The notes beneath the pieces were generated by a model. That model was not told the DNA's origin, ran no database searches, and worked only from the letters and a program-made list of their open reading frames with translations. Of a DNA stretch of 64,000 nt, positions 51,008-60,152 are shown piece by piece. The DNA lies in NCBI GenBank assembly GCA_021784575.1, contig JAJYHX010000001.1, forward strand, positions 413,917 through 477,916, read 5' to 3'. Position 1 is the first letter of the stretch. Every line of letters begins with the position of its first letter. Made by a program: the position numbers and the translations under genes. The DNA comes from Nitrospirota bacterium (lineage in GTDB: Bacteria; Nitrospirota; JACRHJ01).

Positions 51008-52813
51008 ATGCTCTTTGTAAAGTATTGGCCCGCGGTTGTGGCGGGGGCCGCGGTGTTTTTTGCCCTGTTCTCAAACCCGATGCTCTCTTTTGCCGCGATG
51101 AGCTACGGAACGGATTTATCTTATCAGCAGAACAGTTCGACCAGCGGCAGTATTACCAGCAGCAACGCCCAGGAGCGGTTCGGAGCCTATTTCGACATGC
51201 TGTCCGCGCCAAACTCCAAACTGACGCTTACCGGGATATTCCGCCTGGACGTTGTCAGGAATACGGCAAATGCCGGGAGCAAGAGCTTCGAGCTCGACCC
51301 GGATGTCGCCGTCAATATGTCCACCAGGGCGACGCAGATTGGCGTCGGCTACACGGATATTAACGTGACCAACAATATCATAACAAACGGACAGACCCAG
51401 ACCCAGACGACGAAAGCCACGGATATGTACGCGGACTCCGCTTTTGCCAGCGGGAACCTTCCGGCGCTCAGGGTCAGATACGACGCGCGCAACCAGAACC
51501 AGTCCGCCTCGGGCTCGCCGTCCAGCGACACGAAGACGGGAGCGTTCGACGTGTCGACTAATTACAGGATCGGCATAATTGCGTTTAGCGGCGATTACAA
51601 CAACCAGGCGACAACGACCAACACGACCGGACAGACCCAGGATACGACCTCTATAAACGGCCAGGTCAGCGCGGCGAAAAGTTTTGGAAGCAGATTTACC
51701 GCAGGCGTGAGCGAGAATTACAACTACGCGCTCGCCACCACTGACGGCCAGGCCAATTCCAAGGCCTATAATTCAATATCCGATTTGACTGCGTCATATG
51801 TGCCTATTGCCGGGGCGCAGGTTTCGGGGAGCTATCTATACAGGTTGTCGGAAGACCTCCTCAATGCGTCCGGCACCGGCAGGACCACCCAGAGCACGTA
51901 TTTCAGCTCGGCCAGTTACGCATTTCCGAAATATCTCCGGCTCTACGGTTCGTATATCCTGAACGACTCATCGGGGGGGATAAGCTCGTCCTCGAGCCAG
52001 ACGCTCGGCGGAATGGACCTGATCCACCACGTAGGCATATTTACCTTCAGCTCAAGGTACGAAAAGAGATTCGACACAAACAGCAGCCAGGGGAGCGCCT
52101 CGACTTCGGATACTCAGGACAACGTGGACTGGCTTATCTCCGCCCATCCGTCCATGTTCCTCAACATGGCCCTCTCCGAATCGTACGTCAATTCCTCGAA
52201 CTCATCCAACACGGGCAGTTCGTCAAACGAATTCAGGTTTATGACCAACATCGGCCCGATAAAGAACCTGTCCATGAACCCTTACTGGGACTATACGGTA
52301 TCGGCCACATCTCCCGGTTCTTCCTCGACCAACAATATGGATATGGTTATCCCGGTGATGTATGTGCTGAGCCTGCGGCAGAGGTTGATGATGAATTTCT
52401 CAGACATGTACAGGATGGCATGGGCCGGCGGCACAGGCGCGGCCACCACGTCTACAACCCAGAACAACGCGGTTGTAAGGCTTTCTCTCGCAAGGCCGCT
52501 GCCCAACACGATGTTGACCGCCGACGCGGCCTTCAACACCTCATGGGGCACCAACGCGCAAGCCGTCACGACCAGCTCATATTCTCTCATGGGAAGCTGG
52601 TTTGATCAGCCGCACGCGCTGAACTTCAATTTAATGTATCAGCCGGCGTCCTTGTCTCCGGCCACCATGAATTTGGCCGCGCAGTACAGCCTCGGCGTAA
52701 GGCTCAGGAACCTGGCCGTGAGCTTGCAGGCGCGGTATAGCTACTCACAGGTTTTTACATCCGAAAGGAACAATTCACAGGCGATTTACCTTTCGTTAAG
52801 TATCAGGAAATAA
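51008..52813 (+). CDS. Putative outer-membrane beta-barrel protein (Ser/Thr/Asn/Gln/Tyr-rich, amphipathic beta-strand pattern)
   Basis: Signal peptide MLFVKYWPAVVAGAAVFFALFSNPMLSFA; many alternating hydrophobic/polar strands (RFTAGVSENYNYAL, YLRLYGSYILND, AVVRLSLARPL, NLAVSLQARYSYSQVF, AIYLSLSIRK). No terminal Phe, so beta-barrel assignment is tentative. Confidence 0.4.
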   Translation: MLFVKYWPAVVAGAAVFFALFSNPMLSFAAMSYGTDLSYQQNSSTSGSITSSNAQERFGAYFDMLSAPNSKLTLTGIFRLDVVRNTANAGSKSFELDPDVAVNMSTRATQIGVGYTDINVTNNIITNGQTQTQTTKATDMYADSAFASGNLPALRVRYDARNQNQSASGSPSSDTKTGAFDVSTNYRIGIIAFSGDYNNQATTTNTTGQTQDTTSINGQVSAAKSFGSRFTAGVSENYNYALATTDGQANSKAYNSISDLTASYVPIAGAQVSGSYLYRLSEDLLNASGTGRTTQSTYFSSASYAFPKYLRLYGSYILNDSSGGISSSSSQTLGGMDLIHHVGIFTFSSRYEKRFDTNSSQGSASTSDTQDNVDWLISAHPSMFLNMALSESYVNSSNSSNTGSSSNEFRFMTNIGPIKNLSMNPYWDYTVSATSPGSSSTNNMDMVIPVMYVLSLRQRLMMNFSDMYRMAWAGGTGAATTSTTQNNAVVRLSLARPLPNTMLTADAAFNTSWGTNAQAVTTSSYSLMGSWFDQPHALNFNLMYQPASLSPATMNLAAQYSLGVRLRNLAVSLQARYSYSQVFTSERNNSQAIYLSLSIRK

Positions 52814-52917
52814 AGAGTGAATTCAATCTTTAAAAATTTTTAATTTTCAAAGATTGATGTTGCAAATCAATTATAGCTATGATAAAAAGTCAAACTGGGG
52901 GAGGGGGAGCGTTTATT

Positions 52918-53697
52918 ATGCGAATTAGTATCAGGTTTCTTCTTTTTGCATGTCTGGCGGTTTTATTTCTTGCTGGTTGCGGAAGCGGGACGACCCGTCT
53001 TTTTACCAAGCCTATCGCCGAATCCACTTACGTGACATATCCGGAATGGGGCCCCGACTGCGACGTCGCGGTTATGCCTTTCGTGAACGTGTCCAAGGAC
53101 AAGGATGCGGGCCTTAAGGCGCGCGATCTCTTCGTTACCGAGCTCTATATCTCCGGCGCCTTCAAGGATGTCGTGGACGAGGGCCAGATGGTCGAGGTAA
53201 TGAAGAAGCTTAAGCTTAGGGAGACCGACAACATCGGCAAGGACACGCTGAAGACCCTTGGGGACAGCTTGGGCGTTCAGGCCGTCATATTCGGCACGGT
53301 CGAGGTGTACAACGAACGGTCCACCCAGGGCGCGCAATTCGCGGTATCGTTGCGCATGGTGGATGTCGATACCGGCCAGATACTCTGGCTCGGGGACGCG
53401 TCCAAGGAGGGCGGCGGGACGGTTTCCGAGGCCCTGGGGCTTTCCAGCGGCCCGCCCGTAATCGACGTTGCGCGCGACGTCATGAGCGGCCTCGTGGACG
53501 ACCTTGCGAGTGAAATAAGGGACAGGAAGGTAACGGGTAAAAAGGCCCTTGCGCTTTTAAAGAGAGAGAAGATGGGAAATGTATTGAAGGCCAAGGTGAA
53601 TAGCGCGCTCGTCCCGAACCAGCAGGCCGGAGCTGTGCCGCCGCCCGCCGTTAAAAGCAACTCCGCGGGCATAACGCCTGCGCCGGTCGTTCCTTAA
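52918..53697 (+). CDS. Lipoprotein of the LpoB/CsgG/TolB-N-like fold family (PF-type VAVMPFxNxS motif)
   Basis: Lipobox LFLAGCGS with ATG at 52918 and RBS gggggaggggga. VAVMPFVNVSKDKDAGLKARDLFVTELYISGAFKDVVDEGQ...AVIFGTVEVY matches the conserved LpoB/CsgG-like core. Pro/Ala-rich C-terminal tail. Confidence 0.45.
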   Translation: MRISIRFLLFACLAVLFLAGCGSGTTRLFTKPIAESTYVTYPEWGPDCDVAVMPFVNVSKDKDAGLKARDLFVTELYISGAFKDVVDEGQMVEVMKKLKLRETDNIGKDTLKTLGDSLGVQAVIFGTVEVYNERSTQGAQFAVSLRMVDVDTGQILWLGDASKEGGGTVSEALGLSSGPPVIDVARDVMSGLVDDLASEIRDRKVTGKKALALLKREKMGNVLKAKVNSALVPNQQAGAVPPPAVKSNSAGITPAPVVP

Positions 53698-53832: not shown

Positions 53833-53896
53833 AAAATTCGCGGGCACGGGTATTAATAACGAGAACAGGGGTTTTAAGTATAAAATGCGTATATCC

Positions 53897-55381
53897 ATGA
53901 AGAATATAAAAACTGTTGCGGTATATGCGGCCTTCGCCCTTGCAGTCTGGGGCTGCGGCCACAGCACGGTGGTCGTGGGGCGCCGGGCCGAGATTAAAGG
54001 CATAAAACCCCAGGAGCAGTCCCAGCCTTCGGTATCGGCGAAGTCCGCCAAGGCCGCCGGCCGGAAACAACAGTCCGTCCTCGCGGGCGCAAAAGGCGGC
54101 GCGATGGGCATGGGCGGGCCGTCCGGCGCGAAAGCATCGACTGCCAAGGTTGCCGCCAATATGCTGCCGCAGTCTTCGCCGGCAAGGCCGCGGCCCGCGC
54201 CTCCGAAAGAGGAAGCAAAGTCAAAATCCGGCCCCGCGCCATACAAGCTCGACCTCTCCTTCGGCGGTTTCGGGCTTGGGATAGGGCTTTTCGATACGCC
54301 CGTGGCCGTTGCGGTGGACGACCAGGAAAATATGTATGTCGTTGACCAGGGTAACTACCGCATACAGAAGTTTGACCGTTTCGGCCTCTTCCAGTTCGCA
54401 TTCGGCAGGCAGGGCATGGGAGAGGGGGAGTTTGCGCAATCCATGACGACCCCCACGGCCCTGCGCGAGACCGGCGAGTTCGAGTTCAACAAGCCCGTCG
54501 GGATATACCTCGACCAGGACCGCACCAGGAACCTGACCAGGATACAGGTTGTGGACTCTCTGAACAACCGCATACAGCGTTTCCTCGTCGCGTCCAACGT
54601 ATCGGACTTCATGAATGTGTACAACCCCTTCGACGCAAGTCCGCCGAACGTTTTTATCATGCTCACAAAAACCGGGAATGCGGTCGATACGGCCCTGCAC
54701 GACAAGTTCCTTGCGGAGAACAGGCTCGTCATACTCGACCCGCTATACCTCCAGGACATTGCGGGAAAGGCCAACGCATTCCTGCTTACTCCGTTTATAT
54801 GGGGTGGGCTGGGCTTCACGCAGGGCCAGCTTAACCAGCCGACATATCTTACAATGGACGAAAACAACGTCCTTTGGGTTTCCGACACCGGGAACGGACG
54901 CGTGGAAGGCTTCAATGTAAGCGAGTCCAACCCCGCGGTCGATGCGACATATTTCCGCGAGTTCGGAAACGACACGAACCTCTCTTACGGCAAGGGCAGG
55001 CTCAATCAGCCGACCGCCATCGCCTACGATAACGAGGGACTCGGCGGGTTCCTTGTCCTCGACAAGCTCCCGGACGGCACTTACGCAATCGAGAAATTCG
55101 ACAGAGACGGCCGTTTCAAGGGGATATTTACCAAATCCGGCGACAAGGAAGGACAGTTGAAAGAGCCGGTTGACATCGCCCTGAGCCCTTTCGACAATAC
55201 CTGTTTCGTTACGGACAGGGGCAGGCGGAAGGTTATGGTCTACAACAACAAGGGCGTGTTCATGTACGAGTTCGGCGGCAACGAGCTGGCGGATCCGAGG
55301 GGCATAACGGTCTTAAGGAACGGCTATGTCTATGTTACGGACGCCGCCAAGAACATGGTCTACCGGTATGTCCCGCAATAA
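53897..55381 (+). CDS. Secreted/lipo NHL-repeat beta-propeller protein (paralog 3; lacks FN3 domains, has Ala/Lys/Gly-rich linker)
   Basis: MKNIKTVAVYAAFALAVWGCGHS signal; NHL blades (ENMYVVDQGNYRIQKFDRFGLFQFAFG, TRIQVVDSLNNRIQRF, NNVLWVSDTGNGRVEGFN, FLVLDKLPDGTYAIEKFDRDGRF, NTCFVTDRGRRKVMVYNNKGVFM, GYVYVTDAAKNMVYRY). Confidence 0.65.
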   Translation: MKNIKTVAVYAAFALAVWGCGHSTVVVGRRAEIKGIKPQEQSQPSVSAKSAKAAGRKQQSVLAGAKGGAMGMGGPSGAKASTAKVAANMLPQSSPARPRPAPPKEEAKSKSGPAPYKLDLSFGGFGLGIGLFDTPVAVAVDDQENMYVVDQGNYRIQKFDRFGLFQFAFGRQGMGEGEFAQSMTTPTALRETGEFEFNKPVGIYLDQDRTRNLTRIQVVDSLNNRIQRFLVASNVSDFMNVYNPFDASPPNVFIMLTKTGNAVDTALHDKFLAENRLVILDPLYLQDIAGKANAFLLTPFIWGGLGFTQGQLNQPTYLTMDENNVLWVSDTGNGRVEGFNVSESNPAVDATYFREFGNDTNLSYGKGRLNQPTAIAYDNEGLGGFLVLDKLPDGTYAIEKFDRDGRFKGIFTKSGDKEGQLKEPVDIALSPFDNTCFVTDRGRRKVMVYNNKGVFMYEFGGNELADPRGITVLRNGYVYVTDAAKNMVYRYVPQ

Positions 55382-56624
55382 GCCTGTAATTGTCCTCTTT
55401 GCGCTGTTTTTGTTTGTCTTAGCAATCCCTCTCGCAAGGTCAGCGGCTGCCGGAACGAAGGCGCGGAATGGTGTCACATCCGGGGCCGGCTCTCCGCGGG
55501 ACCGCTCCCACGCAGGGTCAAAGACCGACAAAGTGAAGACGCAGGGCAAAGGCGTGCTCGTGCTCGTGCCCGAGAACCTTTCCGCCGTCTACTCCGAAAC
55601 CGAGCTCTCCGGGGCCCGGCGGCGCGAGGTCTCTGTCCAATCCACCACAGAAGGAGAGATTTCGGTGGTGGGAATAGCGGACGGCAAGCCGGAGATAGAG
55701 ATAGTAAATAACGGCAGGTCCAAGGTAACGCCGGTATTTTACGGCAAGTATTTCCACGCGCAGATTATCCTGTCGCTCGGCGAGAACATGATAAGCGTGC
55801 GCTGGAGAAGGAAGGGCGGGGACTGGAATGTCCAGACCATTTCGCTTTTCCGCTCCTCCAGGATGCTCGGCGCGCCGGTTGTAAACTACCCGCCTTATTC
55901 CTTTCACACTCCCAAGAACGAAGAGCAGTGCCAGGAGTGCCACCAGATGCAGCTTACGCGTAAGGAAATAGAAACGGCAAGGGACTTGAGCTGCCTTAAG
56001 TGCCATGCCGACCTGACGAGCAATATTTACGTCCACGGCCCGGTAAACGTGGGCATATGCACGGTATGCCACGACCCGAACAGCAAGCCGAACAAATACA
56101 AGGTGGAGGAAGGCGACAAGACACTGTGCTACTCCTGCCACACGGACAGGGAGAAGATAGACGACAAGATGAAGCGCGAGCACGGCCCCGTAGGCGCGGG
56201 GCTTTGCACTGTATGCCACGACCCTCACGGCTCGCCATTCAGGTATCAGCTTGTTAAATCCAAAAACGAGATATGCCTGATGTGCCATCAGAGCGATGCG
56301 AACCACTGGCTAAACCAAAGCAGCCTTCATCCGCCGTTTAAAAAGGGAGAATGCTACAGGTGCCACGACCCTCATTCCGCGAACTATAAATACAACCTCA
56401 AGGCCGACAGGAAGCATATCTGCTTGATTTGTCATACCCTTCCCATACCCGGCCATCTTCACGACCCGGGCAAGGTGCCGCTTTTCAAGCTGCCGCCGGA
56501 TTTTCCCCTTACAAAACATGGGAAAACGATGTGTCTGACCTGCCACTCCCCACATGGCGCCATAGGCCCGCACCTGACCCGCCGGAGGGGTTGCAAGGGC
56601 TGCCATCCGGACAAGGACTCGTAG
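55368..56624 (+). CDS. Periplasmic decahaem c-type cytochrome (~418 aa, 10 CXXCH; MtrA/OmaB-like size class) (cytochrome D)
   Basis: ATG at 55368 overlapping NHL3 end; signal/TM MSRNKPVIVLFALFLFVLAIPLARSAAAG; CQECH, CLKCH, CTVCH, CYSCH, CTVCH, CLMCH, CYRCH, CLICH, CLTCH, CKGCH. Confidence 0.7.
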   Translation: MSRNKPVIVLFALFLFVLAIPLARSAAAGTKARNGVTSGAGSPRDRSHAGSKTDKVKTQGKGVLVLVPENLSAVYSETELSGARRREVSVQSTTEGEISVVGIADGKPEIEIVNNGRSKVTPVFYGKYFHAQIILSLGENMISVRWRRKGGDWNVQTISLFRSSRMLGAPVVNYPPYSFHTPKNEEQCQECHQMQLTRKEIETARDLSCLKCHADLTSNIYVHGPVNVGICTVCHDPNSKPNKYKVEEGDKTLCYSCHTDREKIDDKMKREHGPVGAGLCTVCHDPHGSPFRYQLVKSKNEICLMCHQSDANHWLNQSSLHPPFKKGECYRCHDPHSANYKYNLKADRKHICLICHTLPIPGHLHDPGKVPLFKLPPDFPLTKHGKTMCLTCHSPHGAIGPHLTRRRGCKGCHPDKDS

Positions 56625-56646
56625 GCCGGCCGCTCGGTTTCAAAAT

Positions 56647-56679
56647 AAAAAAAGCCCCGTAAAAACGGGGCCTTTTTTA
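56647..56679. terminator. Bidirectional rho-independent terminator (A-run, GCCCCG-loop-CGGGGC, T-run) closing the cytochrome cluster and the convergent small gene
   Basis: aaaaaaagccccgtaaaaacggggcctttttt. Confidence 0.8.
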
Positions 56680-56690
56680 TGTCTTTCCGG

Positions 56691-56837
56691 TCAGTCCTTC
56701 TTGCCGATTTTAAAAATTTTGGTTCCGCATACCGGGCATTTGCCTTCGACGGCGGGTTTTCCGTTCTTCATCGTAATCTCTTTTGCGTCGCTAATATCCC
56801 GTTTTTCCTTGCATTTTACGCAATATCCGCTTGTCAT
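56691..56837 (-). CDS. Small zinc-ribbon protein, DUF5679-like (48 aa), not in the supplied ORF track
   Basis: Minus-strand ATG at 56837 preceded by RBS aggagggg; translation MTSGYCVKCKEKRDISDAKEITMKNGKPAVEGKCPVCGTKIFKIGKKD with CxxC...CxxC zinc ribbon. Confidence 0.55.
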   Translation of the reverse strand: MTSGYCVKCKEKRDISDAKEITMKNGKPAVEGKCPVCGTKIFKIGKKD

Positions 56838-57175
56838 CGCCCCTCCTTTGAAGTGGATTTATTTCCTCAATACTACCACTAAATTTCTATAAATCAATTT
56901 GTTTTTCATGGAGTTTCATGCGCCGCGAAACGCACCATCCCATCGCCCGGTTTTTGGGCGCGGAACAGATCTAAAAAATGGCCGTTTTCGGGCAATTTCG
57001 GGGCAAAACGGGGGCGCGGGGAGGGGACGTTTCCCTGCGGTAATTTAGTAAATTCCTCTTATTCCACAATGTGTTGCGGTTCATATAAATATTTATCGCG
57101 TTTATATACTTGACAAACCCAAATAATTCTGGTAGAGTTTAAACATTCTAAACATTCATTCGTCTAAAGGGAGCT

Positions 57176-58114
57176 ATGGAAACCAAGAATAAGATTACTC
57201 TACCGGAACTTGCAACTTACTTCCACAATGAGGATGCCGCGCGGGAATTCCTTGAGAAACTCCGTTGGCCGGACGGCGTGGTCTGCCCGCATTGCGGCTC
57301 TATCAATGAACATTATCGGATTGTGCCAAAAGAAGGCTCCAAGACCCGCAAGGGCCTTTGGAAGTGTAAGGACTGCCGCAAGCAGTTCAGCGTTACGGTA
57401 GGAACCGTTTTTGAAGGCTCTCATATTCCCATTCATATCTGGCTTTATGCTATCCATGAAATGAGTTCCGCTAAAAAAGGCGTGAGCGCGCACCAGCTTC
57501 ACCGGAAACTTGGGATAACCTATAAATCCGCTTGGTTTATGGCACATCGGATAAGATTTATAATGGAAGGTGATACGCCGTTAGCCGAGAAAATGAAGGG
57601 CATCGTTGAATGCGATGAAACGTATGTAGGGGGAAAAGGGAAGGGGCTTGGCAAGAAATTCTGTGGTCGTGGAACTCTCAAGACTCCTGTCTTTGCACTC
57701 GTTGAAAGGGATGGTCGTGTTAAATCTCAGGTTGTGGAGCGCGTAACCGGTAAGAATTTAAAGGGTATAATCAAGAAAAACGTCGAAACCGCTTCCACGA
57801 TAATGACGGACGATTTCAAGTCCTATAAAGGGTTAAACAAGATATTTTATGCTCATAAGGTGGTAGAGCACGGCAAGAAGATTTACAGTAAGCCCGGTGG
57901 AATTCACACCAACACAATTGAAGGCTATTTTTCTATCCTGAAACGTGGTATAGTTGGCGTATACCAGCACGTCGGCAAACAGCACCTTGACAGGTATCTC
58001 GCCGAATTTGATTTCAGATACAATGCCCGCAAGGTTACGGATGGGGAGCGTGCCGTATTAGCTCTCAAGGGCATTGAAGGAAAGCGGCTGATGTATCGGG
58101 ACTCATCGCTATGA
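57176..58114 (+). CDS. IS1595-family transposase (N-terminal zinc-ribbon plus DDE_Tnp_IS1595 domain)
   Basis: 312 aa; VCPHCGS...WKCKDCRKQFSVTVGTVFEGSHIPIHIWLYAIHEM (ISXO2-like Zn ribbon/HTH), DDE region ...VECDETYVGGK...IMTDDFKSYKGL...HKVVEHGKK...HTNTIEGYFSILKRGIVGVYQHV. Confidence 0.8.
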   Translation: METKNKITLPELATYFHNEDAAREFLEKLRWPDGVVCPHCGSINEHYRIVPKEGSKTRKGLWKCKDCRKQFSVTVGTVFEGSHIPIHIWLYAIHEMSSAKKGVSAHQLHRKLGITYKSAWFMAHRIRFIMEGDTPLAEKMKGIVECDETYVGGKGKGLGKKFCGRGTLKTPVFALVERDGRVKSQVVERVTGKNLKGIIKKNVETASTIMTDDFKSYKGLNKIFYAHKVVEHGKKIYSKPGGIHTNTIEGYFSILKRGIVGVYQHVGKQHLDRYLAEFDFRYNARKVTDGERAVLALKGIEGKRLMYRDSSL

Positions 58115-58866
58115 AGAACAGACTAATAAGCCCCCGGACTATCGCTCTTAGGATTGAAGGCGAGAAAATACCCGCCGAAAAACTCCGCCGCGCTATTGGC
58201 GATTTCTTTAATTTTCTTGATGAGGCAAGCGCAAATGTAACTGGCAGACGAAAGCCAATAGAATGGCTTGTGACTGTCAAGAAGGGAAGCGCTATCTTTG
58301 CCGCCGATCCTGCAATTAAAGGTAAGGTAAAACCAAATACCGTGAATGATGTTTTTAAAGCAGTAGAAAACGGAATCGATGTTTTAGAAAGAGGGAAGGG
58401 GCGTCCCAAAATACTTAGCGATAAGGCTTTGGAATACTATCAACATTTGGCTATTAGCCCTTCTGTGAGGGGGGAAGAAGGAATAATAGGTATAAGTGTC
58501 ATTATTGACGAAAGGGAACCTTTAAAATTAACCAAACACGCAGTTGAGCATATAGACGAGATATTGGGGACGCACTCTAAAGCTTTAGGCTCCGTGGAAG
58601 GACAGCTTTTAACCATCTCTGAAAGAGGAAGTTTAAAAGTAGTAATATATGAAGCTCTAACGGATAGAGCGATTGACTGCCATATAGATGATTTTATGCT
58701 TGAGGATGCCATGAACGCCTTTGGGAAAAGGGTTTATGTTTACGGTCTGATTAGTTATAACAAGCAAGGACTACCAAATAGAATAATAGTTGAAGATATG
58801 CGGATATTTCCAGAGGATGAAGCCATACCTACCGCCCGTGAGATTTGTGGACTCTTAGGAGCCTAA
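58111..58866 (+). CDS. Hypothetical 251-aa protein translationally coupled to the transposase (ATGA overlap) and to the downstream PIN gene
   Basis: No recognisable domain; lower-GC codon usage matching the island. Confidence 0.5.
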   Translation: MKNRLISPRTIALRIEGEKIPAEKLRRAIGDFFNFLDEASANVTGRRKPIEWLVTVKKGSAIFAADPAIKGKVKPNTVNDVFKAVENGIDVLERGKGRPKILSDKALEYYQHLAISPSVRGEEGIIGISVIIDEREPLKLTKHAVEHIDEILGTHSKALGSVEGQLLTISERGSLKVVIYEALTDRAIDCHIDDFMLEDAMNAFGKRVYVYGLISYNKQGLPNRIIVEDMRIFPEDEAIPTAREICGLLGA

Positions 58867-58867
58867 T

Positions 58868-59344
58868 TTGCCGCCACAGAGAAGATACTGGGATTCAGAT
58901 TGTTTTTTGGCTTATCTTGGAGAAGATACCGGAAAACGCGGTAAATGCTTAGGTGTGCTTGATGCCGCCGAAAAAGGTGATGTGCTGATAATTACCTCCG
59001 CCCTTACCATTGCAGAGGTCGTTTATCTCAAAGGCAATCCTAAAATTACTCCCGAAAAATCTGATAAAATTTGCCGCTTTTTCGAAAACAAATATATCCA
59101 GCCAATTAACTTAGACCGTTATCTCGCTGAAGAAGCAAGACAACTCTTGTGGATACACCCGGCACTAAAACCAAAAGATGCAATTCATGTGGCGAGCGCT
59201 ATCCGCGCAAAAGTCCATTTGATGGACACTTTCGATAAATATCTTATTGGATTAAGTGGTAAAATAGGAGACAATCCTCTTATTATTGGAGAGCCAAACA
59301 TACCCTATGAAGAAGATATGTTTAAAGGACTCGAAGAAAACTAA
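58868..59344 (+). CDS. PIN-domain protein (VapC-like ribonuclease toxin)
   Basis: 158 aa; acidic PIN residues in conserved positions (WDSDCFLAYL, ITSALTIAEV, PKDAIHVASAI, LMDTFDKYL); starts 1 nt after previous stop. Confidence 0.6.
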   Translation: MPPQRRYWDSDCFLAYLGEDTGKRGKCLGVLDAAEKGDVLIITSALTIAEVVYLKGNPKITPEKSDKICRFFENKYIQPINLDRYLAEEARQLLWIHPALKPKDAIHVASAIRAKVHLMDTFDKYLIGLSGKIGDNPLIIGEPNIPYEEDMFKGLEEN

Positions 59345-59633
59345 GGAAAAACATAAGGGGGCCGAGAAGCCCATCTCCCTTTATCCCCTCGGTTTCGAGG
59401 ATGCTATGAAGGCTATTCTTCAAACCCCGCATGAGTCAAAGCGCGTAAGTCCTAAAAAACAAAAAGAAAAAAAAGGTAAGCAAGGGTAATTTCTTCTATA
59501 TCTGTTAGAATTCGCTCCTATTCCCTTCCCGCTTGGGTTTGTCAAATATACAATCGCGATATTTATCGATAAGCAAGGCCCCGTTTTGCAACTATTTGAG
59601 AAATAAGGGTAAATTTGTGCTATATTTTGAGAT

Positions 59634-60152
59634 ATGGACAGGGATATAAGAGAAGCCCGCGACAAGGCCGTCGATGCCTTGGCCGTGGCAATAGGGTTTT
59701 GGGGAATCGACCCCCTTGAGGCGCGCATCTGGGGTTTCCTTTTCCTTTCGCGGGCGCCGCTCTGCCTGACAGGGCTGGCAGAGAGCTTAAGCGCCGACGC
59801 GCAGGCGGTGGAAGCCAAGCTTAACCTGTTGAAAAGGCTGGGCGCAGTGAAGGAATCCGCGCAGTCGCCGGGGCGGGATAAGTGCTTCGAGGCGGAGGCG
59901 GATTTCTTCCGGATACTGCAAACCGTCCTGAAGGAGCGCCGCGAAAAGGAAATGGGATCGGCCCTCCAGGAGATCTGCGACCAGCGCGCGTATGTGGAAT
60001 ACCGCTATGACGAGGAAAAAGCCCCGGAGCTTAAGTTCATGGCGGAACGTCTGGAGAAGCTCGAAGGTTTTATACACCTGATAGACCGCGCGATGTTCGG
60101 GCTTAGGACTTTTGCCGGGATAAGGGGCATGTTCCGGGGGCGTGAGAAATGA
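59634..60152 (+). CDS. MarR/GbsR-like winged-helix transcriptional regulator
   Basis: 172 aa; GIDPLEARIWGFLFLSRAPLCLTGLAESLSADAQAVEAKLNLLKRLGAV (HTH) as in GbsR/TrmB-like choline-responsive repressors. Confidence 0.5.
   Translation: MDRDIREARDKAVDALAVAIGFWGIDPLEARIWGFLFLSRAPLCLTGLAESLSADAQAVEAKLNLLKRLGAVKESAQSPGRDKCFEAEADFFRILQTVLKERREKEMGSALQEICDQRAYVEYRYDEEKAPELKFMAERLEKLEGFIHLIDRAMFGLRTFAGIRGMFRGREK

What the first reader, a model, noticed from the sequence alone, without database searches (positions are those of the whole stretch)
57176..59344. IS1595-family transposase translationally coupled to an unknown 251-aa protein and a PIN-domain protein in an AT-rich island
The transposase stop and the next start overlap (ATGA at 58111..58114). 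The PIN gene begins 1 nt after the 251-aa gene. All three share a lower-GC composition than the flanks. IS1595 elements are normally single-gene, so a transposase with a tightly coupled two-gene passenger is unusual. A 251-aa partner is far larger than canonical VapB antitoxins. The partner plus PIN could be a non-canonical toxin-antitoxin, abortive-infection or defence module mobilised by, or domesticating, the transposase.
Basis: partly seen in the sequence, partly recalled or inferred. Interest (0 to 1): 0.72.

Follow-up and report, generated by a model that had tools for sequence, protein, structure and literature searches.

The report
Jumping gene carrying PIN nuclease module
This is a 2.5-kb insertion sequence of the IS1595 family that carries, between its own ends, a PIN nuclease gene, an unannotated partner gene and a tiny fourth gene; relatives of the package occur in several bacterial phyla and in phage-like contigs, often with restriction-modification or toxin-antitoxin genes added, so it is a little-described cargo-carrying transposon, not a new kind of system.

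Summary
The transposase gene (57176-58114), the 251-aa gene (58111-58866) and the PIN gene (58868-59344) are tightly coupled and lie in a low-GC insert. All three sit inside one mobile element, 57097-59558 (2462 bp). It has 26-bp terminal inverted repeats and a perfect 8-bp target-site duplication (ATATTTAT). The same arrangement, with the same repeat consensus and its own 8-bp duplication, recurs in other metagenomic elements whose proteins are only 40-60% identical. One relative is 100% identical at three different insertion sites. This is therefore an IS1595-family "transporter IS" (tIS), a class already recognised for that family.

What appears to be undescribed is the fixed passenger core:
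- The 251-aa protein has a ferredoxin-like domain plus an OB-fold domain. Its family has about 2,200 sequence clusters and no annotation.
- The PIN protein has an intact acidic tetrad.
- A conserved ~45-60-aa lysine-rich ORF overlaps the PIN 3' end.

Downstream of this core, relatives carry variable cargo (restriction-modification genes, methyltransferases, toxin-antitoxin genes, ClpP).

The 251-aa/PIN pair also exists without any transposase, and a sibling IS transposes without the pair. The pair is therefore a passenger, most likely an addiction or defence module. Its function is inferred, not shown.

The parts
57089..57096 (.). Left copy of the 8-bp target-site duplication, ATATTTAT
   Evidence: It is identical to 59559-59566 and lies directly outside the IR tips. 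It was the only solution returned by an unbiased IR plus 8-bp duplication search.
57097..57122 (+). Left terminal inverted repeat (IRL), CGCGTTTATATACTTGACAAACCCAA
   Evidence: It matches IRR at 23 of 26 positions. The same consensus forms the ends of L003, L006, L010, L014-16, L017, L019 and L027. The tip position was fixed using three identical copies with different flanks.
57110..57138 (+). Probable transposase/operon promoter: TTGACA, 17 nt, TAGAGT with a TG extension. The -35 hexamer lies inside IRL
   Evidence: It is the best sigma-70-like match in 56600-59700, at 10 of 12 positions. The TTGACA is conserved in the IRL of all relatives. Promoter function is inferred.
57176..58114 (+). IS1595-family DDE transposase, 312 aa, with an N-terminal zinc ribbon
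   Evidence: Pfam and NCBIfam hits cover the full models. C37, C40, C64, C67 and D147, D212, E249 (plus K256, R257) are invariant across seven elements.
58111..58866 (+). Passenger 1: 251-aa protein of an unannotated family, with an N-terminal ferredoxin-like domain and a C-terminal OB-fold
58868..59344 (+). Passenger 2: PIN-domain nuclease, 158 aa
   Evidence: Pfam PIN at 1.9e-10. D9, E50, D104, D123 and T43/S44 are invariant in an 18-sequence alignment. It follows the OB-fold gene in nearly every related locus fetched; the exceptions are two distant solitary family members.
59307..59489 (+). Passenger 3 (ORF4): conserved lysine-rich small ORF, 60 aa from the ATG at 59307 (67 aa from the TTG at 59286). 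It overlaps the PIN 3' end in the +1 frame and has the core motif FDxxhKxhLxxPPExK
   Evidence: It is present in the same relative frame in 11 of the 12 elements where it was found. Codon test: 195 synonymous to 417 non-synonymous differences in frame, against 74:517 and 32:565 in the other frames. Gene callers also predicted it in L007, L009, L010, L017 and L035. It has no family hit.
59533..59558 (-). Right terminal inverted repeat (IRR). Its reverse complement reads CGCGATTGTATATTTGACAAACCCAA
   Evidence: The 19-mer core occurs only at these two places in the 64-kb window, against 0.02 expected by chance.
59559..59566 (.). Right copy of the 8-bp target-site duplication, ATATTTAT

Best explanation
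Window 57097-59558 is a complete, probably active, horizontally acquired insertion sequence of the IS1595 family. It is of the passenger-carrying type called a transporter IS (tIS). It inserted into the intergenic region between a small DUF5679 gene and a CudC/MarR-like regulator gene and duplicated 8 bp of target (ATATTTAT).

Shown:
- A Zn-ribbon/DDE transposase lies between 26-bp terminal inverted repeats that also enclose three passenger genes.
- The whole unit moves as one piece in relatives.

Inferred mechanism:
- One promoter, whose -35 hexamer lies in IRL, drives a translationally coupled operon: tnp, the OB-fold gene, PIN and ORF4.
- The PIN protein is an active Mg-dependent ribonuclease-type toxin.
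- The 251-aa ferredoxin-like/OB-fold protein is its cognate neutralising or controlling partner. It is a non-canonical antitoxin, large and without a VapB-type DNA-binding domain.
- Together they act as an addiction or exclusion module. It makes loss of the element costly ('take me or die', as proposed for TA pairs in Tn3-family transposons). That would explain why the pair survives after the transposase decays.
- The stretch between ORF4 and IRR is a cargo slot. In relatives it holds restriction-modification, methyltransferase, TA or ClpP genes. In the window it is empty.

Confidence by part: about 0.95 that this is a tIS with these boundaries; about 0.5 that the pair is a toxin/antitoxin-like addiction module as opposed to another passenger function.
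For: Boundaries:
- IR plus identical 8-bp flanks are the unique solution in the window.
- A related 3141-bp element (Tnp, 251 aa, PIN, ClpP) is 100% identical at three sites, with duplications TTAACTTT, AACCTTAT and AACAGGAA.
- Independent elements L003 (3712 bp), L006 (4190 bp), L017 (3869 bp) and L019 each have the same IR consensus and their own perfect 8-bp duplication.

Foreign origin: GC3 is 34-51% against 71-78% in host genes.

Transposase integrity.

Long co-inheritance: seven intact elements show mean identities of 58% (Tnp), 46% (OB) and 53% (PIN), and the three proteins diverge together.

The pair is a passenger, not transposition machinery:
- A sibling tIS (L050) has the same IR family, an intact transposase and duplication TAACGTAT, but carries a different 242-aa passenger and no OB-PIN.
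- OB-PIN pairs exist with no transposase, for example next to trpBA in L039/L040, and in L012, L018, L020 and L021.

TA-like features:
- The PIN acidic tetrad is invariant.
- The upstream partner is separated by 1 nt or overlaps PIN in all relatives.
- The partner evolves faster than PIN.
- The pair stays intact where the transposase is truncated or frameshifted (L001, L019, L025, L029, L032).
- Co-travelling cargo is itself of the addiction/defence type: a BglII-like R-M pair, a SocA/Panacea antitoxin, a SecB-like protein, and orphan or Mrr-fused methyltransferases.

Precedent: TA pairs, including PIN and PIN_3 toxins, embedded in the transposition module of Tn3-family transposons (PMC7157771).
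Against: - No toxicity, neutralisation or interaction data exist.
- The partner has none of the known antitoxin DNA-binding folds and no hit in any TA or defence library.
- Its conserved C-terminal tail (LPxxxDVxGIL) is also kept in distant solitary family members that lack a PIN neighbour. The tail is therefore not evidently a PIN-binding motif.
- No separate strong promoter for the pair was found. This is consistent with operon expression but is untested.
- Only one copy of the window's own element is known, so its current activity is unproven.
- L010 has the IRs but no exact duplication.
Confidence: 0.6

Rival explanations
1. The OB-fold protein plus PIN (possibly with ORF4) is an anti-phage or anti-MGE defence (abortive-infection) system rather than a classical addiction TA. 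In this reading the OB/ferredoxin-like protein senses foreign single-stranded nucleic acid or a phage protein and releases or directs the PIN nuclease. The IS then serves as a shuttle for small defence cargos.
For: The OB domain resembles ssDNA-binding proteins (SSB, RPA, PriB). The variable cargo beside it is dominated by restriction-modification and methyltransferase genes and TA modules. Elements sit in phage-like contigs and IMG/VR contigs as well as chromosomes. Full-length structural neighbours are uncharacterised phage proteins.
Against: There is no hit in PADLOC-DB v2. The OB-fold protein is absent from cultured-phage and plasmid records. No phage-challenge data exist. Defence and addiction roles are not mutually exclusive, so this is partly a refinement of the best explanation and not only a rival.
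Confidence: 0.25
2. The OB-fold protein, PIN nuclease and ORF4 are accessory transposition proteins of this IS lineage. They might process single-stranded or flap intermediates, cleave the second strand, or choose or regulate targets, in the way TnsA complements TnsB in Tn7.
For: Gene order is strictly conserved. Translational coupling to the transposase is tight (ATGA overlap in the window and in L010). The three proteins co-diverge. PIN/FEN-like nucleases and OB-fold proteins act on DNA intermediates (general knowledge). ORF4 is found only in transposase-linked copies and not in pair-only loci.
Against: Sibling element L050 has the same IR family and a perfect 8-bp duplication but no OB-PIN. 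Ordinary IS1595-family members encode only the transposase (49%-identical plasmid copies are annotated as a single IS1595 transposase gene). Intact OB-PIN pairs persist at chromosomal sites with no transposase or IR. For ORF4 alone, a role in transposition or in cargo expression is not excluded.
Confidence: 0.08
3. The adjacency is incidental. On this view an ordinary single-gene IS1595 landed next to a resident two-gene PIN module, or the transposase is a domesticated, immobile relic.
For: Only one copy is seen in the window and in matching assemblies. The IRs are imperfect, matching at 23 of 26 positions.
Against: The IRs and the duplication enclose all the genes. GC3 of all three genes is foreign to the host. 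The same three-gene order recurs inside the IRs in more than 8 independent elements, and one has three identical copies. The transposase catalytic and zinc residues are intact.
Confidence: 0.02

Closest known systems
IS1595-family transporter insertion sequences (tIS; Siguier, Gagnevin & Chandler 2009, Res Microbiol 160:232; ISfinder/TnCentral)
   Same: It has a Zn-ribbon plus DDE_Tnp_IS1595 transposase, short terminal IRs with G-rich tips, and an 8-bp target duplication. Passenger genes lie between the IRs with no second IS copy. The typical 8-bp duplication and the IS1595 subgroups carrying passenger genes are from my own knowledge of that 2009 paper, which could not be read here.
   Different: Here the passengers are not occasional cargo. 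A fixed core (OB-fold protein, PIN, ORF4) has co-diverged with the transposase across a widespread lineage, and a variable cargo slot follows it. I could not query ISfinder, so I do not know whether any member already has a name.
Toxin-antitoxin pairs integrated in Tn3-family transposons (Lima-Mendez et al. 2020, mBio, PMC7157771)
   Same: A TA-type gene pair, including PIN and PIN_3 toxins, sits beside the transposase gene and is expressed with it. The proposed role is stabilisation of the transposon itself ('take me or die').
   Different: The transposon family and size differ (Tn3 TnpA with a resolvase, against a 2.5-kb IS). [quoted passage not shown] Here the partner is a 251-aa ferredoxin-like/OB-fold protein of no known family. 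The Tn3 pairs were acquired about 10 separate times, whereas here the pair looks ancestral to the lineage.
VapBC type II toxin-antitoxin systems
   Same: The PIN toxin is about 150 aa with the four conserved acidic residues. The partner gene lies immediately upstream and is overlapping or abutting. The module is found on mobile DNA and in chromosomes.
   Different: VapB antitoxins are about 70-100 aa, with an AbrB, RHH, PhD or HTH DNA-binding domain and a C-terminal PIN-binding tail. This partner is 251 aa and has two globular domains, neither resembling those folds. Toxicity and neutralisation are untested.
OB-fold single-stranded nucleic-acid-binding proteins (SSB, RPA, PriB)
   Different: Identity is only 6-20%, with no sequence-level relationship. 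The N-terminal ferredoxin-like domain and the conserved C-terminal LPxxxDVxGIL tail are additional features. Nucleic-acid binding is untested.

Membership tests
IS1595 family of insertion sequences | Transposase with an N-terminal zinc ribbon and a DDE_Tnp_IS1595 catalytic domain with intact catalytic residues | tested here: met
   Pfam PF12762 at 1.4e-39 (model positions 2-153 of 153), PF12760 at 9e-17, and NCBIfam NF033547 at 3e-60 (2-215 of 215). C37, C40, C64, C67 and D147, D212, E249 are invariant.
IS1595 family of insertion sequences | Terminal inverted repeats at both ends of the element | tested here: met
   The 26-bp IRs at 57097-57122 and 59533-59558 match at 23 of 26 positions. The consensus is shared with at least 8 related elements.
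IS1595 family of insertion sequences | Short direct target-site duplication (8 bp) | tested here: met
   ATATTTAT flanks both ends in the window. Perfect 8-bp duplications also flank L003, L006, L014, L015, L016, L017, L019 and L050.
IS1595 family of insertion sequences | Demonstrated mobility (identical copies at different sites) | tested here: inconclusive
   This is met for the related L014/L015/L016 element, which is 100% identical over 3141 bp at three sites. For the window's own element only one site is known.
Transporter IS (tIS) | Passenger genes lie inside a single IS, between its IRs, and are not flanked by two IS copies | tested here: met
   The OB-fold, PIN and ORF4 genes lie between the transposase gene and IRR. 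The window has no second copy of the IR or of the transposase.
VapBC type II toxin-antitoxin | PIN-domain toxin with conserved acidic active-site residues | tested here: met
   Pfam PIN at 1.9e-10. D9, E50, D104 and D123 are invariant.
VapBC type II toxin-antitoxin | Small upstream antitoxin with an AbrB, RHH, PhD/YefM or HTH DNA-binding domain | tested here: not met
   The partner is 251 aa with no Pfam or NCBIfam hit. Its folds are ferredoxin-like plus OB.
VapBC type II toxin-antitoxin | The toxin inhibits growth and is neutralised by direct binding of the cognate antitoxin | not testable with these tools
   This needs expression and pull-down experiments or a complex prediction. Only single-chain prediction was available.
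Known anti-phage defence systems (PADLOC-DB v2.0.0) | Component proteins match the models of a catalogued system | tested here: not met
   None of the three proteins had a hit at E<=0.1.
Tn3-family TA-bearing transposons | Tn3-type TnpA with a resolvase and res site, with the TA pair adjacent to res | tested here: not met
   The only transposase present is IS1595-type, and no resolvase gene lies within 57097-59558. The analogy is functional only.

The most novel reading that the evidence does not exclude
The fixed core of this IS lineage (ferredoxin-like/OB-fold protein, PIN nuclease, lysine-rich ORF4) may be a new three-component toxin-antitoxin or defence system. In it, an SSB-like OB-fold protein, instead of a DNA-binding antitoxin, would gate a PIN nuclease, perhaps by sensing single-stranded DNA or RNA from phage replication or from the element's own transposition. 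The IS would then be a dedicated shuttle that spreads this core plus swappable defence cargo (R-M, TA, methyltransferases) among bacteria and phages of many phyla.
Probability: 0.2. Interest if true: 0.75.

Novelty: new variant of a known kind. Interest (0 to 1): 0.5.

Why it matters
IS elements are usually treated as carrying only a transposase gene. This lineage shows a 2.5-4-kb IS acting as a modular vehicle: a fixed PIN-based module plus a slot that picks up restriction-modification, methyltransferase and toxin-antitoxin genes. It moves between chromosomes and phage-like genomes in several phyla.

It also gives a genomic context and a testable role to a sizeable unannotated protein family. 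That family has about 2,200 clusters at 50% identity and no Pfam or NCBIfam model. Most members sampled here pair with PIN nucleases.

If the pair is an addiction or defence module, the idea of TA-stabilised transposons extends from Tn3 to the smallest transposable elements. It would also add a non-canonical, OB-fold partner to PIN toxins.

For annotation, the ends, the duplication and the fourth small ORF should be added, and the three 'hypothetical' genes should be labelled as IS passengers.

Tried and rejected
1. The 39-nt inverted repeat first reported (57084-57122 / 59533-59571) is not the true IR. It is the 26-bp IR plus a partly palindromic 8-bp duplication. The tip was fixed using three identical copies with different flanks.
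2. I tested whether the conserved, low-confidence C-terminal tail of the 251-aa protein is a PIN-binding motif. It is not supported, because the tail is also conserved in distant solitary members without PIN.
3. Known-family searches for the 251-aa protein found nothing significant: Pfam, NCBIfam, PADLOC, PHROGs and PDB sequences, and tblastn against cultured phages and plasmids.
4. PDB sequence hits for PIN were low-complexity matches to designed repeat proteins and are not meaningful.
5. ORF4 had no credible hit in Pfam or NCBIfam.
6. Rfam found nothing inside the element, only sub-threshold hits on the host terminator at 56645-56730.
7. A search for a second copy of the window's element found that contigs L035 and L036 are the same insertion site.
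8. The afdb50 fold library was unavailable. A very broad family alignment was too diverse for the metagenome scan, so a narrower one was used.
9. The pattern-based genome and metagenome scans returned few loci. The association statistics therefore rest on about 22 distinct loci, biased toward close relatives.
10. Literature: no paper in the held library links IS1595 with a PIN passenger. The single co-occurrence (PMC6211672) is a Haemophilus parasuis comparative-genomics paper that I did not open. The 2009 IS1595 paper is not held.
Full report
**1. Observation.** The three ORFs exist exactly as described.
- The transposase ORF is 57176-58114 (312 aa), the second ORF 58111-58866 (251 aa) and the PIN ORF 58868-59344 (158 aa).
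- The first two overlap by ATGA. PIN starts with TTG one base after the TAA of the 251-aa gene, with AGGAG 9 nt upstream.
- The first protein is a full-length IS1595-family transposase: Pfam DDE_Tnp_IS1595 at 1.4e-39 plus Zn_ribbon_IS1595, and NCBIfam at 3e-60.
- The third protein is a PIN domain (1.9e-10).
- The middle protein has no significant hit in Pfam, NCBIfam, PADLOC, PHROGs or PDB sequences.
- The low-GC claim holds. The element is 43.5% GC against 57.6% for the window. GC3 is 34-51% in the three genes against 71-78% in neighbouring host genes, so the DNA is foreign to this genome.

**2. Boundaries.** A self-comparison found a 39-nt inverted repeat bracketing all three genes.

The exact tips came from relatives. 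One PIN homologue (P0030) sits on 23 contigs. Three of these (L014, L015, L016) share a 3141-bp block that is 100% identical but has different flanks. At each site the block is bounded by GG-tipped 26-bp IRs and a perfect 8-bp direct repeat: TTAACTTT, AACCTTAT and AACAGGAA.

Transferring the tip position to the window gives the following:

| Feature | Coordinates | Sequence |
|---|---|---|
| IRL | 57097-57122 | CGCGTTTATATACTTGACAAACCCAA |
| IRR | 59533-59558 | matches IRL at 23 of 26 positions |
| Duplication, left | 57089-57096 | ATATTTAT |
| Duplication, right | 59559-59566 | ATATTTAT |

- The apparent 39-nt repeat is the IR plus this partly palindromic duplication.
- An unbiased search required an identical 8-mer outside a 22-nt IR matching at 15 or more positions. 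It returned exactly one solution each in the window, L003, L006, L014-16 and L017.
- L019 has its own duplication, TTATCAAT.
- The IR core occurs only at these two sites in the 64-kb window, against 0.02 expected.
- The element is therefore 2462 bp and contains the transposase and all passengers.

**3. The transposase looks functional.**
- The zinc-ribbon cysteines and D147, D212, E249 (with K256 and R257) are invariant in seven elements.
- The best sigma-70-like site in the region (TTGACA, 17 nt, TAGAGT; 10 of 12) has its -35 hexamer inside IRL. That hexamer is conserved in every relative.
- Rfam finds nothing within the element.

**4. A conserved lineage.** Homologues of the 251-aa protein and of PIN led to about 22 distinct loci.

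| Group | Loci |
|---|---|
| Intact Tnp, ~250-aa protein, PIN in the same order and tight spacing (8) | window, L003, L006, L010, L014, L017, L027, L043 |
| Same module behind a truncated or frameshifted transposase (5) | L001, L019, L025, L029, L032 |
| Pair only, no detectable transposase (8) | L009, L012, L018, L020, L021, L028, L034, L039/40 (L009 and L028 have only 300-500 bp of upstream sequence) |
| Distant family members, solitary (2) | L037, L038 |

- Among seven intact elements the mean identities are 58% (Tnp), 46% (OB-fold protein) and 53% (PIN). The three proteins diverge together, which indicates long co-inheritance.
- Named sources include Nitrospirae, Actinomycetota, Eubacteriales, Thermoanaerobaculia and Bacteroidales MAGs. 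Several contigs look phage-like (L010, L016).
- The IR occurs exactly in 13 IMG/VR contigs.

**5. A fourth gene.** Downstream of PIN, and overlapping its 3' end in the +1 frame in 11 of the 12 elements where it was found, is a lysine-rich ORF of about 42-60 aa. Its conserved core is FDxxhKxhLxxPPExK.
- In the window it is 59307-59489 from the ATG. The ORF listing gives 59286 from a TTG.
- Substitutions fit coding in that frame: 195 synonymous to 417 non-synonymous, against 74:517 and 32:565 in the other frames.
- Independent gene callers predicted it in five loci.
- It has no family match.
- It is absent from the pair-only loci.

**6. Variable cargo.** Cargo lies between ORF4 and IRR.

| Locus | Cargo |
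|---|---|
| window | none |
| L014 | ClpP |
| L010 | N6_N4 methyltransferase |
| L017, L009 | methyltransferase fused to Mrr/NA-iREase domains |
| L001 | D12 methyltransferase plus an HTH protein |
| L006 | a 381-aa unknown protein plus Dam |
| L025 | N6_N4 methyltransferase plus a BglII-like endonuclease |
| L022 | a SocA/Panacea antitoxin plus an unknown protein |
| L019 | a SecB-like protein plus two unknown proteins |
| L003 | a 325-aa unknown protein |

**7. The 251-aa protein.**
- The word-indexed search found only 8 clusters.
- An exhaustive profile search found 2227 representatives at E<=1e-3 (939 at 1e-10). Nearly all of the 150 listed are about 220-290 aa.
- All the hits listed are unannotated (either unnamed or called 'hypothetical protein') and have no precomputed Pfam domain. 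The library behind one search carries no annotation at all.
- Foldseek finds three full-length matches to uncharacterised phage proteins.
- No catalytic constellation is conserved across the family, so it looks like a binding protein and not an enzyme. This is an inference.

**8. PIN.** D9, E50, D104 and D123, plus T43/S44, are invariant in 18 diverse homologues.

**9. Passenger or transposition factor?** Two observations favour passenger status.
- L050 is a sibling tIS with the same IR family, an intact 313-aa transposase and a perfect duplication (TAACGTAT). It carries a different 242-aa passenger and no OB-PIN.
- Intact OB-PIN pairs persist without any transposase or IR, for example next to trpBA in L039/L040.

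Retention of the pair after the transposase decays fits an addictive or otherwise selected module.

**10. Comparison with what is known.**
[quoted passage not shown] The architecture is therefore not new.
- TA pairs embedded in Tn3-family transposition modules, including PIN toxins, are the closest functional precedent (PMC7157771). A 2025 review cites only that work for TA systems on transposons.
- The features that appear undescribed in the held literature are the fixed OB-fold/PIN/ORF4 core, its non-canonical partner and the cargo slot. ISfinder could not be queried.

**11. Verdict.** This is a real feature with correctly observed genes.
- It is a bona fide IS1595-family transporter IS (confidence about 0.95).
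- Its conserved PIN module is most likely a non-canonical toxin-antitoxin-like addiction or defence passenger (about 0.5 for addiction, about 0.25 for defence).
- A role in transposition is unlikely (about 0.08).
- It is a new variant of a known kind, of moderate interest.

Noticed in passing
window 59307-59489 (alternative TTG start at 59286): A conserved lysine-rich small ORF (ORF4) overlaps the PIN 3' end in the +1 frame. Its core motif is FDxxhKxhLxxPPExK. It is present in all transposase-linked relatives checked and absent from pair-only loci. In L009 its stop overlaps the start of the downstream methyltransferase gene.
   Followed up: yes
window 56645-56680 and 59569-59587: The bidirectional terminator hairpin between the cytochrome gene and the DUF5679 gene has its right half repeated, inverted, 3 nt outside the right target duplication (17 of 19 positions; the AAGGCCCCGTTTT core occurs only at these two places in the window). 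It is host DNA on both sides of the insertion. Its meaning is unknown.
   Followed up: partly
L032 5619-7088: A truncated derivative (a 66-aa transposase remnant, the OB-fold gene, PIN and IRR) is itself flanked by the same 8-mer, TTAAGATA, on both sides. The left junction begins GGTCA, like an IR tip. It may have been mobilised in trans using a pseudo-end inside the transposase gene.
   Followed up: partly
L010 4278-8077: A phage-like 47.5-kb contig carries an intact element (Tnp, OB-fold protein, PIN, ORF4 and an N6_N4 methyltransferase) with recognisable IRs. The flanking 8-mers differ (TAAATTAA and ATTTTTTA), so there is no exact target duplication.
   Followed up: no
L050 6835-8844; L052 5434-6809; L053 2738-4430 (IMG/VR contigs): The same IR consensus bounds sibling IS1595 elements without OB-PIN. 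L050 has an intact transposase plus an unrelated 242-aa passenger. L052 and L053 have truncated transposases plus other ORFs.
   Followed up: partly
window 56691-56837 (- strand): A 48-aa zinc-ribbon protein (Pfam DUF5679, 1e-17) lies immediately left of the insertion. Its gene and the intergenic region also have lower GC (46%) than the surrounding genome.
   Followed up: no
window 52600-53200: A second short low-GC stretch (about 45-47% against about 57%) lies upstream of the NHL-repeat-like gene. I did not examine it.
   Followed up: no
window 53885-56624: The host genes left of the element encode a 498-aa protein and a 432-aa protein. The 432-aa protein has many CxxCH haem-binding motifs, i.e. 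it looks like a multihaem cytochrome c. This suggests a metal-respiring or sediment-type host.
   Followed up: no
L038 3695-3970: A distant solitary member of the OB-fold family (223 aa, no PIN neighbour) lies near a 91-aa IS1595 transposase fragment on the opposite strand, inside what looks like a mobile or defence region (DruA and DDE_Tnp_1 nearby).
   Followed up: no
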